Shown here piece by piece: positions 33,831-41,668 of a DNA stretch of 64,000 nucleotides. The notes below the pieces were generated by a model. The model saw only the letters and a list, made by a program, of their open reading frames with translations. It was not told the DNA's origin and searched no databases. Position 1 is the first letter of the stretch. Every line of letters begins with the position of its first letter. This DNA is from Heterodontus francisci (Eukaryota). The position numbers were made by a program, and so were the translations under genes. The stretch lies in contig NC_090416.1 in NCBI RefSeq assembly GCF_036365525.1, positions 13,630,323 through 13,694,322 on the forward strand, given 5' to 3'.

Positions 33831-34910
33831 AAGTGAAGGTTAAAAGCTTACCCATTGTCTCCTGAGACAAGGAGGCCAAAGAAAGAAAGGGTAAAGGGCA
33901 TAGTTAATGCAGAGAAAGACTGCAACAGGGTACGAAATGAGGTCAAATCAACTATTGGTGAGCAAGTTTGCCAGCATTCCCCTGACTTACCTGACCATTC
34001 AGAGCTGTACGTGCACTGAATAGTCGAAAGTGAGTCGATTGATTGACAGAACACAGTTTACTATTTACACACAAGCTGGATTATAGCAAGCGCAGATTGC
34101 AGTACACAATTTCAAATGATCATACTTTAAATGCCTCCCAAAAGAGGGTCTCCCCGGGTATTCCCTTCCCCTCCCCTAGGGGTTAGCCTGGAAAATATTT
34201 GTTCACGGGTCTGTTACGTTGCATCAAATCGACTGCCCGTTACGCTCCACGTGAGAGAGTTTATTTTTAAAATTTCATTCATGGGATTTGTTACCCATCG
34301 CCAACGACAACTGAGTAACCTGTAAAGCCAGTTCAGAGGGCAGTTAAGAGTCAACCTGTGGGTCTGGAGTCACATATTGGCCAGACCAAGTAAGGACAGC
34401 AGATTTCCTTCCTTACCGGGCAGCTGGGATTTGTTTTTTTTTACAACGGTTGATGATAGTTTCATGGTCATCGTTACTAGTTTTCAGTTCTAGCTTTTTT
34501 TAATTAATTGAATTTGAACTCCACCAGTTGCCAGGGTGGGATTTGAACCCAGCTCTCTGGGTTAGTATTTCATTGACATTAGCACTATGCCACTTTCCCT
34601 TACCCGCGGATGCGAGGGTGCCCATTTGCCTCCATCCAAGATGATTTCCCCCTCCGTTGTGCTCTTACATGAAATGGTACAGCACAGAAAGAGCTTTGCA
34701 ACCTGTGGAAGTCCTGACCACCTCACAGCCAATGAGGTGCCTTCTGACGTGTAGTTGCAAGACATCCTTGGGGGAGGGGGAGGGCACATCGAGAACCCGA
34801 GAGCAGATAGAAATTCAGAGCTGGACCCTTTTCATTTGTTCCTCTCCAGATCTGGCCTGCCTTTCAACAGGATTTCTTCAGGGAGAACCTTCCGTGGCCG
34901 AGTTACCGGC

Positions 34911-36145
34911 ATGGAACCCAAGTTCAGCTGGTCTTTCCGGGGAAGCAAGGTGGCGTCTTCCGAATCCAAAGCATCGTCGAGGCCTTCCCTGACTAAATCA
35001 GCCAAGCCTTCCGAGGTTACTCCGCCCAAAGCCAAGGTGTTGGGCCCGAGCAAACAGGAGGCACCGGAAGAGCAGAAACCTCGGAGCTCGTCCTTGTTCT
35101 CCGGGAGATCCGGCGATTCGAGGGCCCCGAGCGGAGGGATCGCCCCGCGGAAACTCAGCCTCCACGAGCAGTGGAAGGGCGCGGGCTCTCAATACGCCGG
35201 CCTCGGCGGGCACCATCGCTCCTCGAGCATGGGCGCCACTCAGTTCTGGAAAGCCATGGAATCCGGGAAGCAGAAGGACGGGGAGAAGGGGAAGAAAGCG
35301 GACGAGCCCAACGCCGGGCAGCGGGGCGTGAGGTTCCGAGGATCGGGCGTCCTGGGCCTGACGGAAAGCATCAGGAAAAGATGCGAAAGCTTTGTGACGC
35401 CGAAGGCGCCCGCCCGGGACGTCGGCGCGCCCGCCAAGAGGGAGGAAGGGCGGGGAAGCAGGGTCGCCGAGACCAGCGGGGCGGGCAACCCGGAAAAGCA
35501 GAGGGCTCGCTCAAACTCGGCGGGACCGGTTCCCGAGAGGCCTTCGTTAGTCATGCAGACAATCCATTCGTTTGAGCAGGCCATGAGGCAGAGGCACACC
35601 AGGAGATGTTCCCGCCAGGAGCATCCGGCTAAAACGTCAGCTGACGGCTCCTCTGCCCCGCCCCCGGGGAAAGCCGAGGACGATGTGGCGACGGACCCGC
35701 AGAGGGCCAAACAGCCATCGCGTGCGTCAAACGACTCAGTCGCCGGCCTCCCCCGGGCGACATCTACATCACAGCCCGCATCCGAAGACCCAAGGGCGGG
35801 CTCGTCCGCTCCCGAGGGATTAACCGGCCGCCAGTCTGAAGACTCGAGTCAAAGTCTTCCATCAAACGCAAGTCCTGCTGCACGTCGCTCGTCTCCAGAG
35901 GTTGAAGCTGGGGCTTGTAATCTGGGACAGTCCTCCAGGGAGAATGATGCAATGGTCCTCGAGGTCCACAGTCAGTTAATGGTGGAAGTGCCCAGGGCCT
36001 CCAGCCCTTGCGGCGTTTGTTCTGAAGTTAACAGTCCTTTGGGCAAAGTTGTGCTCTCCCCGTCTGTCAAATCCGATGATGAGTGGTCACTGTCAGACGA
36101 GACCCACAGCGACATAAGCCAGCTGGACAAGAGTTACTCCATAAG
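34911..36145 (+). CDS. Pro-interleukin-16-like gene, large first coding exon (disordered S/P/R-rich N-terminus ending DKSYSI)
   Basis: 1.39-kb open frame, CpG-rich; strong acceptor at 34848-34849; ATG 34911 in ggcATGg context; donor GTAAGG at 36146 in phase with the next exon. The start could instead lie in an upstream exon. Confidence 0.8.
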
Positions 36146-36769
36146 GTAAGGCCACCCCACACCCAAAGCCAAAGCTCAAACTGCACTGAGCTGGCGATCG
36201 CTGACGGCCGACAGAATCCACGCTCATTTCTTTTGCGTCAATTAAGGTTTCCAGTTAACTCAGAGAATTAGGGTGCCCAACGTTTGATGTAACTGTAATG
36301 GCTCCCCTCCCCCTTCCTGCTCCCAGTCCCACCTTCCCGAACTGGCCCTCAACGCCAAAGCCAACTCCTTTCTATTTGCACCTCTCATTCCAAGGTGTCG
36401 AATGTCCTGGGCCTGGAGGTTAGGAACGCGCCATTAAGCTGACCAATGCCAGTAGCGAGGGAGTGCCGCATTGTCAGAGGTGCCGTCTTTCGGGTGAAAC
36501 ATTAAACTGAGGCCCCGTCTGCCCCTCTCAGGTGGATATAAAAGATCCCACGGCTGCTATTGGAAGAAGAGTGTGGGGGTGGGGGAGGGGGGGAGTTCAC
36601 CTCGGGGTCCTAGGGCCCAGTATTTATCCCTCAACCAACTTCACTAAAAAACAGATTCTGCAGTAGCCCCATTACCCCACATTCCCCACAGGAAGTGTGA
36701 CGAAAGCAGTGTTGTTCTTGGCTGCAATAGTCAAACTATCCTGCCTGGTACACAAATTAATGGCCAATT

Positions 36770-37574
36770 GAGTGTAGAGGGAGCTTTACTCTGTATCTAA
36801 CCCCCGTGCTGTACCTGTCCTGGGAGTGTTTGATGGGGGACAGTGTAGAGGGAGCTTTACTCTGTATCTAACTCCGTGCTGTCCCTGTCCTGGGAGTGTT
36901 TGATGGGGACAGTGTAGAGGGAGCTTTACTCTGTATCTAACCCCGTGTTGTACCTGTCCTGGGAGTGTTTGATGGGGACAGTGTAGAGGGAGCTTTACTC
37001 TGTATCTAACCCCCGTGCTGTACCTGTCCTGGGAGTGTTTGATGGGGGACAGCGTAGAGGGAGCTTTACTCTGTATCTAACCCCCGTGCTGTACCTGTCC
37101 TGGGAGTGTTTGATGGGGGACAGCGTAGAGGGAGCTTTACTCTGTATCTAACCCCCGTGCTGTACCTGTCCTGGGAGTGTTTGATGGGGGACAGTGTAGA
37201 GGGAGCTTTACTCTGTATCTAACTCCGTGCTGTCCCTGTCCTGGGAGTGTTTGATGGGGACAGTGTAGAGGGAGCTTTACTCTGTATCTAACCCCGTGTT
37301 GTACCTGTCCTGGGAGTGTTTGATGGGGACAGTGTAGAGGGAGCTTTACCCTGTATCTAACCCCCGTGCTGTACCTGTCCTGGGAGTGTTTGATGGGGGA
37401 CAGTGTAGAGGGAGCTTTACTCTGTATCTAACCCCCGTGCTGTACCTGTCCTGGGAGTGTTTGATGGGGGACAGTGTAGAGGGAGCTTTACTCTGTATCT
37501 AACCCCCGTGCTGTACCTGTCCTGGGAGTGTTTGATGGGGACAGTGTAGAGGGAGCTTTACTCTGTATCTAACC
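36770..37574 (+). repeat. Same ~70-bp minisatellite, ~11 copies
   Basis: Same unit and orientation as 9757-10266. Confidence 0.97.
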
Positions 37575-37690
37575 TGGCTAGTTCTTGCTTTTGAAGCACT
37601 AAGTATGTGGAAAGCAGATAAAGATGATGAACTGCTGAATCCTTTGTGAAAGTGGAACTGAACGTTTCTGAAAGCCCTGTCCCTGTGTAG

Positions 37691-39990: not shown

Positions 39991-40116
39991 AGAGCTCGGG
40001 AGAATCAGTCACGGTGGAGCTAATGACGTCTGGAGCTGGGCTCGGCTTCAGTCTGGACGGGGGAAAGAGTTCAAGTCAAGGGGACAGACCGCTCACCATC
40101 AAAAAGGTTTTCCCAG
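39991..40116 (+). CDS. IL16-like exon, last PDZ N-half (ESSGESVTVELMTSGAGLGFSLDGGKSSSQGDRPLTIKKVFP)
   Basis: Matches IL16 [26 protein letters not shown]; acceptor cgcag, donor GTAGGA. Confidence 0.95.
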
Positions 40117-40742
40117 GTAGGAAGGCATCGTCCTTAATTGTTTAACGTTATCCCGTATGTTAGATACTGAGATATTCAAAGCTTTGAAGTCCGTGCACCC
40201 CAAGGTTTCCCGGTTGAGGTCTTGCACCCGTCTTGCCTCTGTACGGTTTGTTACTTTCATAAGTGAAATTACCCTTACCCACGGCTGATATCCTTTATCC
40301 CATAAGTCTGTCCATTCCTCCCTCTCTCCTCCCTCCACCTCTGCCCTCCTGTCCCTTCCTCCATCTATCCCTGGTTCAGTCCCTTGGTCTGTGCTATGTA
40401 TTGACAATAGAGTCACAACAGCACACTACTGTCCCCTTGGGATAAGATTGTGGGGGGGTGGAAACCAACCAGCATTCCCATTCCTGATGGCTATCCCGTG
40501 AACCCCTCGCTCCCTCCCCCGGCTTTGACGTCGGGATGGGATAGGATGGGGCAGGAGCTGAGGTTGAAGTGCCCGCCTGCCAACGCTCACGGCCAGGGAA
40601 GAATGAATGGTCGACTTGGACGAGGCACTCAAACGGGGGGTAACCCAGCAGGTCCAAGTCCTTGGGGATGGGGGGAATGGGTGGCGGGTGGGCTTCGAAG
40701 GGAGCGCAGTTCCTTAGCCTTGTCGTCTCTGCTTGATTCCAG

Positions 40743-40924
40743 GTGGGCCGGCTGACCGAAACGGTTTGATCCAGCCCGGGGACCGGCTGGTGAAGGTACG
40801 GGACCAGGATTATCAGGAGCTGACCTGTTACGAGGCCTGGAATCTGATCAAGTCGCTTCCCGCGGGCCCTGTGCGGGTTGTCATCCGGAAAAAAGCCGAA
40901 GGAACGAGCGGGCAGCAGTCGTAA
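40743..40924 (+). CDS. IL16-like terminal exon (GGPADRNGLIQPGD...YEAWNLIKSLPAGPVRVVIRKKAEGTSGQQS*)
   Basis: Matches IL16 VQPGDEIL...[22 protein letters not shown]; stop TAA. Confidence 0.95.
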
Positions 40925-41662
40925 GATTCAGGAGGTTTTTTTTTTCCTTGTGTTTTTGCCCGAAAGACACAATGGCTGTTTCCGATGCCCTTTCCTAACT
41001 TGACATCCAGCTCAACCCCCGGAACGTCAGGAGGCGGACCTGAGGTGCAACTCATTTAGCCTCAAAGGGAAGCAGAGGGACTGGGGCTCCAAGAGCCAAA
41101 ATGACTGAAAGCTCGCGAAGAGGTCCGAGAAAAAGAAATTCTTCAGAAGGCCAATGGATTGTTGACCTCCCAAGTTGAGGGCCTGAGTGCATTGGCCCCC
41201 ATTGTTGGGCAAGGGGACTAAGCATTACGGAGCCTAGTCGGGTCGATGGGAGTTGAGATACAGAACAGTCATGGCTTCATGGATGGCGGGACCAGCTCGA
41301 GGGGCTGAATGGCCTTCTCACGGTCGCTGCATGGAAGGACCATTAGGGTAGAGTGTTGTAATTGCGCTATAGTGTTAAACCAGCCATCGTGTGTATCGCG
41401 CCCACACGGATGCACCCACTATTAGCAGTGGGGATTTGACCTTTGGAAGGAAGTCCATCACAGTTGAATACCGGGCACATTACCAGGGCGCAAGGCTCAT
41501 GGTGGGATCTTGCAGTATTACTTGCAGGACTGCTGCGAAGTAACTAAGGCCGGGTGATTTGGTGACGCCATTGGGGATCGCTGACTAGTCTGCAGGGTTC
41601 CTGCTGAGCCCTACAGCTGATGTAATATTTATGTGTCGTTGACTTCATGTTTTTTTCTTTTT

Positions 41663-41668
41663 AATAAA
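41663..41668 (+). terminator. Candidate poly(A) signal of the IL16-like gene
   Basis: First AATAAA I found after the stop (~740 nt downstream), in U-rich context. Confidence 0.55.

What the first reader, a model, noticed from the sequence alone, without database searches (positions are those of the whole stretch)
34850..41668. IL-16 paralogue between UBAP2L and HAX1: candidate ohnologue absent from the human locus
Seen: six in-phase exons encode ~695 aa with two GLGF PDZ domains. The pre-PDZ helix and first PDZ look closer to recalled human IL16 than to PDZD2. Known: human UBAP2L and HAX1 are adjacent on 1q21.3, IL16 is on 15q25 and PDZD2 on 5p13, and 1q21/15q/9p13/19p carry genome-duplication paralogue sets (TPM3/TPM1/TPM2/TPM4, AQP10/AQP9/AQP3). 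Inference: this is a third IL16/PDZD2-family member kept in cartilaginous fish and lost in mammals, potentially a little-characterised cytokine-like or PDZ scaffold gene.
Basis: partly seen in the sequence, partly recalled or inferred. Interest (0 to 1): 0.75.

Follow-up and report, generated by a model that had tools for sequence, protein, structure and literature searches.

The report
Overlooked third IL-16 family gene
This shark gene is a real, separate relative of the immune protein IL-16 that is also kept in bony fishes, coelacanth, turtles and crocodilians but was not found in mammals; it likely arose in an ancient genome doubling, likely works as a scaffold inside the cell, and is often mislabelled as IL-16 in fish databases.

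Summary
Confirmed. Six GT-AG exons give a 695-aa, two-PDZ protein, 100% identical over the searched exon and equal in length to NCBI 'pro-interleukin-16-like [Heterodontus francisci]'. The same species has a separate IL16 on another contig. In an ML tree the protein sits in its own clade (21 rows, 99/96), apart from IL16 (99/98) and PDZD2 (100/99); a shark-specific duplicate is rejected (AU p=6e-9). The clade is the fish/coelacanth gene annotated si:dkey-92i15.4. It is not limited to cartilaginous fish: ray-finned fishes, coelacanth, turtles and crocodilians have it. No mammal, bird, squamate or amphibian member appeared, but genomes could not be searched. A bichir run-on model joins it to the same HAX1-like neighbour, so that synteny is old. 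A published paralogon table puts the three neighbourhoods in three quarters of one 2R paralogon, so an ohnologue is likely; the branching order is unresolved. It has lost the N-terminal PDZs and mirrors short pro-IL-16. Most likely an intracellular PDZ scaffold; a cleaved cytokine is the rival. It is annotated in databases, but ten literature searches found no description. Moderate interest.

The parts
34850..36145 (+). First located exon (acceptor at 34850; ATG 34911); codes aa 1-411, a low-confidence, probably disordered Ser/Pro/Arg-rich region
   Evidence: no Pfam family; pLDDT mostly <50
35547..35603 (+). Short conserved helix, aa 213-231 (the [S/L]VxxxIxxFE motif shared by the paralogue, IL16 and PDZD2)
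   Evidence: 36 of 56 paralogues, 37 of 43 IL16, 15 of 16 PDZD2; helix H213-231 with pLDDT about 83
36072..36128 (+). Acidic Ser/Thr-rich patch, aa 388-406, typical of the paralogue; candidate phosphorylation or cleavage site (inferred)
   Evidence: at least 10 D/E in the 45 aa before the helix in 38 of 56 paralogues, 1 of 43 IL16, 1 of 16 PDZD2; acid-S-[LV]T pattern 43 of 56 vs 0 of 43 and 0 of 18 (P0007 itself misses that pattern)
36771..37574 (.). 71-bp tandem repeat, 11.5 copies, in intron 1; not part of the gene product
37691..37874 (+). Exon 2, aa 412-473: family-specific helical element before the PDZ pair
   Evidence: H413-422, H443-449, H454-465
38604..38705 (+). Exon 3, aa 474-507: first part of PDZ-A with GLGF loop
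   Evidence: two zebra shark isoforms differ by the matching 34 aa
39398..39656 (+). Exon 4, aa 508-593: rest of PDZ-A (His542 at alphaB1) and the inter-PDZ linker
39991..40116 (+). Exon 5, aa 594-635: first part of PDZ-B with GLGF loop
40743..40924 (+). Exon 6 coding part, aa 636-695 and stop: rest of PDZ-B with Trp668
41663..41668 (+). AATAAA, likely poly(A) signal
28847..29741 (+). Last exon of the upstream gene (UBAP2L by recalled sequence features), stop near 28942, AATAAA at 29736
   Evidence: name recalled
44267..53565 (+). Downstream gene (HAX1 by recalled sequence features), from a likely ATG at 44267 to the stop at 53565; interrupted by a 5-kb CCCT-rich repeat and a 200-base N run
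   Evidence: its exon at 51793-51942 matches the tail of bichir model P0144 (48%, E 6e-8); name recalled

Best explanation
The gene encodes a 695-residue, two-PDZ protein of a third jawed-vertebrate branch of the IL16/PDZD2 family (database name si:dkey-92i15.4), which likely arose by whole-genome duplication and likely acts as an intracellular scaffold rather than as a cytokine. Shown: the gene model, a separate IL16 in the same species, the three clades, loss of the N-terminal PDZ domains, an intact GLGF loop with His at alphaB1 in PDZ-A, Trp in the groove helix of PDZ-B, no hydrophobic signal or membrane segment, and linkage to the same downstream gene in bichir. Inferred: PDZ-A binds class I C-terminal tails (S/T-X-hydrophobic) of cortical or actomyosin-regulating proteins; PDZ-B has a blocked groove like IL-16; the short FE-motif helix and the acidic Ser/Thr patch in the disordered arm control anchoring and turnover.
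For: Clades: (60 rows, LG+C20): paralogue 21 rows 99/96, IL16 21 rows 99/98, PDZD2 16 rows 100/99, each one side of a branch in 100% of 200 bootstrap trees; each gnathostome clade roughly repeats the species tree. A shark-specific duplicate is rejected, p-AU 5.8e-9. Synteny: bichir model KAG2462215.1 (P0144) runs from the paralogue into a sequence matching the window's downstream gene. Paralogon: Lamb 2021 (PMC8040251; supplement rows and passages) lists paralogon 7 with TPM3/AQP10 at human 1:154.2-154.3 Mb in quad C, MEX3B at 15:82.0 in quad D and MTMR12 at 5:32.2 in quad A, with topology ((A,B),(C,D)); this predicts the ML topology (PDZD2,(IL16,paralogue)). Positions of human UBAP2L, HAX1, IL16 and PDZD2 next to those markers are recalled. 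Architecture: 21 of 21 paralogues scanned have 1-2 PDZ stretches, against 4 in long macaque IL16, 6 in PDZD2 and 6 in amphioxus. His at alphaB1 in 56 of 56 paralogues; Trp in 53 of 56. Highest 19-residue hydropathy 0.75 and no hydrophobic N-terminus. P0007 has no D-[G/S/A] in the inter-PDZ linker; DxxD-[G/S/A] occurs there in 2 of 56 paralogues. Analogy: fly Big bang is an apical actomyosin scaffold (PMC5839783, passages; its kinship to this family is recalled, not stated in the passages seen); binding of pro-IL-16 PDZ to myosin phosphatase subunits is recalled.
Against: No binding, localisation or expression data were obtained. The IL16+paralogue sister node is weak (84/47); paralogue+PDZD2 is not rejected (p=0.16). 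With starfish alone as outgroup the root falls inside the paralogue clade (support 0), and with amphioxus alone the three clades form an open fork. No cyclostome sequence was in the trees. IL16, PDZD2 and UBAP2L are absent from the part of Lamb's table that is held (file cut when stored). Lack of a signal peptide does not separate scaffold from cytokine, because IL-16 is released without one (pyroptotic release, PMC10983113 passages). Horn shark IL16 itself also lacks D-[G/S/A] in its linker, so that absence discriminates poorly. The His and Trp residues are shared by all three clades, so they mark the family, not a special role.
Confidence: 0.62

Rival explanations
1. Same origin, but the protein is a second IL-16-type cytokine precursor: a caspase would cut it in the acidic patch before the helical element and release a two-PDZ fragment, as shown for crab IL-16-like.
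For: The architecture mirrors short pro-IL-16 (631 aa, 2 PDZ). The modelled PDZ-B matches IL-16 5fb8 (TM 0.94 on the target, rmsd 0.9). DxxD-[G/S/A] lies within 45 aa before the helix in 26 of 56 paralogues and 0 of 43 IL16. Crab IL-16-like is cut by caspase-3 before its two PDZ domains and secreted (PMC8326423, passages). A lamprey gene labelled IL16/PDZD2 marks one T-like cell subtype (PMC11372201, one passage).
Against: P0007 has one DxxD, inside a helix and followed by Arg; none of the 8 chondrichthyan rows printed shows DxxD-[G/S/A] in the patch, and Asp-rich stretches give DxxD by composition alone. The basic tail after PDZ-B is not conserved: RR/KR/KK start in 43 of 43 IL16 rows, mixed in the paralogue (its role in CD4 binding is recalled). 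Both crocodilian models lack the last half of PDZ-B.
Confidence: 0.25
2. An old small-scale duplicate of the 3' half of IL16 (the short-isoform part) that landed between UBAP2L and HAX1 before jawed vertebrates split, not a genome-duplication copy.
For: Only the short-isoform part is present in 21 of 21 paralogues scanned; the ML tree pairs it with IL16.
Against: It sits in the segment where a 2R copy is expected; a random insertion into the right paralogon quarter is unlikely, and truncation after duplication explains the architecture equally well.
Confidence: 0.1
3. A translocated true IL16, or a shark-only duplicate.
For: NCBI names it pro-interleukin-16-like; PDZ-A is 73% identical to horn shark IL16.
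Against: A separate IL16 exists in the same species (53% identical over 284 aligned residues); AU p=5.8e-9; orthologues occur from bichir to turtles.
Confidence: 0.01

Closest known systems
si:dkey-92i15.4 (database name of the coelacanth, bichir and teleost gene; 'pro-interleukin-16-like' in sharks and turtles)
   Same: Same clade; two C-terminal PDZ domains; acidic patch; same downstream neighbour in bichir.
   Different: Bony-fish forms are longer (up to about 1150 aa); most bony-vertebrate rows have a 3-residue deletion in PDZ-B; shark rows have Cys where others have Arg at alphaB1 of PDZ-B (9 of 56). No paper with this name was found.
Vertebrate IL16 (short pro-IL-16, 631 aa)
   Same: FE-motif helix, pre-PDZ helical element, PDZ-A with His, PDZ-B with Trp; best PDB hits.
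   Different: Separate gene and clade; no long multi-PDZ form seen; PPVAPKP-like motif in 3 of 56 vs 40 of 43 IL16 rows; lacks the mammalian linker Asp site; has its own acidic patch.
PDZD2 (PAPIN/AIPC; synonyms recalled)
   Same: Same C-terminal PDZ pair, FE motif and Trp.
   Different: Six PDZ domains and about 2500-2800 aa; separate clade 100/99.
Invertebrate family members: amphioxus and starfish six-PDZ-type proteins, crab IL-16-like, fly Big bang
   Same: C-terminal PDZ pair with His and Trp in amphioxus and starfish.
   Different: Single pre-duplication genes; crab protein is cut before both PDZs and binds integrin (PMC8326423); fly protein is an apical actomyosin scaffold (PMC5839783; kinship recalled).

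Membership tests
IL16/PDZD2 family | C-terminal PDZ pair most similar to IL-16 PDZ domains | tested here: met
IL16/PDZD2 family | Trp in the groove helix of the last PDZ (feature recalled from IL-16 structures) | tested here: met
   W668; 53 of 56 paralogues, 43 of 43 IL16, 16 of 16 PDZD2
IL16/PDZD2 family | Upstream FE-motif helix and pre-PDZ helical element | tested here: met
IL16 orthologue | Nests in the IL16 clade; is the species' IL16 | tested here: not met
IL16 orthologue | Long isoform with extra N-terminal PDZ domains | tested here: not met
   1-2 PDZ in 21 of 21 paralogues; no IL16/PDZD2 protein hit the window outside the six exons; the unlocated upstream exon leaves a small gap
IL16 orthologue | PPVAPKP-like prodomain motif | tested here: not met
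   absent in P0007; 3 of 56 vs 40 of 43
IL-16-type cytokine precursor | Caspase-3 site that frees a C-terminal PDZ fragment | tested here: inconclusive
   no linker D-[G/S/A] in P0007, but also none in horn shark IL16; upstream DxxD in 26 of 56 paralogues, not in P0007
IL-16-type cytokine precursor | Release from cells; CD4/CD9-dependent chemotaxis; leukocyte expression | not testable with these tools
   needs experiments; no expression data obtained
PDZD2 orthologue | Nests in PDZD2 clade; six PDZ domains | tested here: not met
si:dkey-92i15.4 orthologue | One clade with the named coelacanth, bichir and teleost proteins | tested here: met
   96, 99/96
si:dkey-92i15.4 orthologue | Same genomic neighbour | tested here: met
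   one species only: bichir run-on model
2R ohnologue | Duplication after amphioxus and before the jawed-vertebrate split | tested here: met
   root unstable when one outgroup is dropped
2R ohnologue | Copies lie in different quarters of one paralogon | tested here: inconclusive
   neighbour genes in quads A, C, D of paralogon 7; human positions of the family genes and flanking-gene names are recalled
2R ohnologue | Topology (PDZD2,(IL16,paralogue)) and cyclostome placement | tested here: inconclusive
   ML topology agrees at 84/47; alternative p=0.16; no cyclostome rows
Class I PDZ scaffold | GLGF loop and His at alphaB1 | tested here: met
   His542; 56 of 56
Class I PDZ scaffold | Binds S/T-X-hydrophobic C-termini | not testable with these tools

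The most novel reading that the evidence does not exclude
Jawed vertebrates began with two IL-16-type cytokine precursors. The second is cut at its own acidic site to release a two-PDZ fragment, as in crabs, still works in sharks, bony fishes and turtles, is decaying in crocodilians and was lost several times in tetrapods. Some fish 'IL-16' sequences and results would then belong to this other gene.
Probability: 0.2. Interest if true: 0.7.

Novelty: new member of a known kind. Interest (0 to 1): 0.42.

Why it matters
It fills a missing quarter of the IL16/PDZD2 family and gives a natural comparison for asking when IL-16 became a cytokine rather than a PDZ scaffold. It also has a practical side: database entries named IL-16 for large yellow croaker (UniRef A0A2I6QF80), Atlantic salmon, gar, sturgeon, killifishes, mackerel and mullet fall in this clade, not in IL16, so fish immunology work based on those names needs checking. 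The zebrafish orthologue would make the function directly testable.

Tried and rejected
Whole-genome search: no genome is held, so the separate IL16 was shown from protein records. Expression: one search listed 4 runs of one study holding exon 1, none on record as RNA ('no RNA holder listed'; not evidence either way); no reads were laid, so splicing, the upstream exon and tissue expression stay open. Naming the flanking genes by tool failed. The exon-1 region has no Pfam family. The regex linker counts mislocated many teleost rows and were replaced by alignment-based counts; only the correctly located P0007 and P0017 linkers are cited. The AlphaFold model is poor overall (pTM 0.42); only the PDZ domains and helices are used. 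Atlas search with the coelacanth protein gave generic PDZ and pro-IL-16 clusters. Literature: 10 searches. No papers for 'dkey-92i15.4', for IL-16/PDZD2/paralog/UBAP2L or for IL-16-like in cartilaginous fish. Searches listed papers, none about this gene by title or abstract start. No IL-16 mention in PMC4929537, PMC5839784 or the elephant shark genome paper and its one held supplement. Two ids recalled for an IL-16 structure paper were not held. Subscription journals, where most fish IL-16 cloning papers would be, are not searched. A sole BAC lists aqp10, hax1, ubap2l, c1orf43 with no IL16-like gene named (PMC6829477 and PMC6236887, one passage each): it supports the block but not this gene's place in teleosts. 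Earlier scan findings: 3 look-ups, nothing. No complex prediction was sent: no candidate partner was available. Rejected readings: chance ORFs, translocated IL16, shark-only duplicate, PDZD2 orthologue.

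
Full report
Observation. The six exons are real. One search gives 34850-36145, 37691-37874, 38604-38705, 39398-39656, 39991-40116 and 40743-40924, with 5 of 5 introns GT-AG, one frame and a single terminal stop; ATG 34911 yields 695 aa and AATAAA follows at 41663. A search with exon 4 (18 hits among 130 candidates) returned a 695-aa protein at 100% identity, named by its source 'pro-interleukin-16-like [Heterodontus francisci]' (XP_067879039), and a second protein of that species named pro-interleukin-16 (1254 aa, XP_067873828). 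Their longest contigs differ (22.1 vs 46.4 Mb) and they are 53% identical over 284 aligned residues. No genome was held. Exon 1 starts at an acceptor, so a further 5' exon is likely; it was not found. The ATG is conserved as MExK in 5 of 7 other chondrichthyan proteins.

Neighbours. Upstream on + lies the end of a gene whose exons read like UBAP2L (stop near 28942, AATAAA 29736); downstream on + a gene that starts at 44267 and reads like HAX1. Both names are recalled; Pfam, PDB and the Atlas did not name them. One independent check turned up: bichir model KAG2462215.1 (P0144), in the same 90% cluster as bichir si:dkey-92i15.4, runs on into a sequence matching the downstream gene's exon at 51793-51942 (48%, E 6e-8). 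Apart from two weak repeat hits of one unrelated protein, it was the only hit outside the gene when all stored proteins were run against the window, leaving out the CCCT repeat. So paralogue and downstream gene are adjacent and co-oriented in shark and bichir.

Phylogeny. Searches with the shark C-terminal region (768 hits among 7191 candidates, best 120 listed) and a turtle orthologue (137 hits among 8000 scored candidates, best 120 listed) supplied the rows. A 120-row quick tree has a 58-row clade (96) with 9 chondrichthyan, 1 coelacanth, 10 turtle, 2 crocodilian and 36 ray-finned fish rows, including every row named si:dkey-92i15.4, beside a 60-row IL16 clade (97). The careful 60-row tree (rows picked by me for taxon spread from the larger set) gives paralogue 99/96, IL16 99/98, PDZD2 100/99. 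Holding chondrichthyan paralogue and chondrichthyan IL16 together is rejected (p-AU 5.8e-9). The order of the three clades is not settled: IL16+paralogue has 84/47, paralogue+PDZD2 is not rejected (p=0.16), and dropping either outgroup leaves the root open or inside the paralogue clade. No cyclostome and no named shark PDZD2 was in the trees.

Range. Clade profiles sorted all stored proteins: 109 scored best as paralogue (3 of them starfish ties), 132 as IL16, 39 as PDZD2. None of the paralogue-class proteins carries a mammal, bird, squamate or amphibian label; the 7 unnamed ones are 76-97% identical to teleost paralogues. The mammalian entries named 'IL-16-like' (bilby, bat) are true IL16. 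This is absence from word-seeded protein searches, not a genome test; the bird segment is a small chromosome that is often poorly assembled (recalled). Both crocodilian models stop at the end of exon 5 and sit on a long branch: decay or mis-annotation.

Origin. Lamb 2021 (PMC8040251; passages and supplement rows seen, file cut when stored) places TPM3 and AQP10 (human 1:154.16 and 154.32 Mb; chicken 25, gar LG24) in quad C, TPM1, AQP9 and MEX3B (human 15; chicken 10) in quad D, and TPM2, AQP3 and MTMR12 (human 9 and 5:32.2 Mb; chicken Z) in quad A of paralogon 7, with topology ((A,B),(C,D)). With the recalled human positions of UBAP2L/HAX1, IL16 and PDZD2 beside those markers, this gene would be the quad C copy and sister to IL16, as the ML tree shows weakly. 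Simakov 2020 (PMC7269912, passages) reports that one copy of each second-round pair keeps under half as many genes; that chicken 25 is such a copy is recalled. I put the ohnologue origin at about 0.85.

Anatomy. 21 of 21 paralogues scanned have 1-2 PDZ stretches, against 4 for long macaque IL16, 6 for PDZD2 and 6 for amphioxus: the gene has lost the N-terminal PDZs and resembles the 631-aa short pro-IL-16. Residues 1-400 model with low confidence except a helix at 213-231 that carries a motif shared by all three clades (36 of 56, 37 of 43, 15 of 16; many misses are short or partial models). An acidic Ser/Thr patch before the pre-PDZ helices is typical of the paralogue (38 of 56 vs 1 of 43 and 1 of 16); 25 of 56 rows, nearly all ray-finned fish, read DSGxxS there, the recalled beta-TrCP degron pattern, but P0007 does not. 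PDZ-A has GLGF and His at alphaB1 (56 of 56); PDZ-B keeps the Trp (53 of 56; the 3 misses are truncated models). The IL16 PPVAPKP-like motif is missing in P0007 (3 of 56 vs 40 of 43). There is no signal or membrane segment. The model's PDZ domains match IL-16 5fb8 (TM 0.94, rmsd 0.9) and 1x6d.

Mechanism. Best reading: a cytoplasmic scaffold whose PDZ-A binds class I tails, probably at the actomyosin cortex, by analogy to fly Big bang (PMC5839783, passages; kinship recalled) and the recalled binding of pro-IL-16 to myosin phosphatase subunits. All functional steps are inferred. The rival is a cytokine precursor. Mammalian pro-IL-16 is cut by caspase-3 (PMC10983113), crab IL-16-like is cut before both PDZs and secreted (PMC8326423), and a lamprey IL16/PDZD2 gene marks a T-like subtype (PMC11372201). 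P0007 lacks a good site in the linker and in the acidic patch, but shark IL16 lacks the linker site too, and 26 of 56 paralogues have DxxD-[G/S/A] upstream, so this is not excluded. No expression data were obtained.

Novelty and verdict. The gene is annotated by pipelines and has an orthology name, so it is not unknown sequence. Ten library searches found no paper describing it; subscription journals were not covered, and bioRxiv supplements were closed. The new points are a third, pan-gnathostome family member with patchy tetrapod survival, and database entries named IL-16 that belong to it. New member of a known kind; interest 0.42.

Noticed in passing
P0177, P0176, P0108, P0083, P0133, P0194, P0159, P0160 and others: Proteins named 'interleukin 16' or 'pro-interleukin-16' by their sources (croaker, salmon, gar, sturgeon, killifishes, mackerel, mullet) fall in the paralogue clade, not in IL16; two bird PDZD2-clade entries also carry a UniRef name 'Pro-interleukin-16'.
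   Followed up: partly
P0173, P0192 (crocodilians); P0150, P0152, P0153 (sea turtles): Crocodilian models end at the exon 5 border and lack half of PDZ-B, on a long branch; some sea turtle models skip or shift frame in exon 5. Decay or annotation error.
   Followed up: partly
teleost and gar paralogues, acidic patch: DSGxxS pattern (beta-TrCP degron consensus, recalled) in 25 of 56 paralogues, 0 of 43 IL16 and 0 of 18 PDZD2/invertebrate rows; not in sharks.
   Followed up: partly
window 40743-40924, aa 664: All 9 Cys at PDZ-B alphaB1 among 56 paralogues include the chondrichthyan rows, where IL16 has Arg (43 of 43) and PDZD2 His (15 of 16).
   Followed up: no
window 44397-49718: A 5.1-kb CCCT-rich tandem repeat (23-bp unit, about 228 copies) ending at a 200-base N run, inside the first intron of the downstream gene; it gives three spurious 1800-aa Pro-rich frames.
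   Followed up: no
window 36771-37574: 71-bp tandem repeat, 11.5 copies, 96% matches, in intron 1.
   Followed up: no
window 29750-34849: Four consensus-like splice donors (33135, 33798, 34029, 34389) are candidates for the missing 5' exon; a pair of inverted repeat arms at 31797-31905 and 33846-33958.
   Followed up: no
window 23253-25680 and 54982-55962: Broken LINE-like frames (endonuclease and reverse-transcriptase-like by recalled motifs) in the last intron of the upstream gene and beyond the downstream gene.
   Followed up: no
P0025 (sturgeon, 811 aa): IL16-clade model whose C-terminal PDZ block appears repeated after the normal end; probably a run-on model.
   Followed up: no
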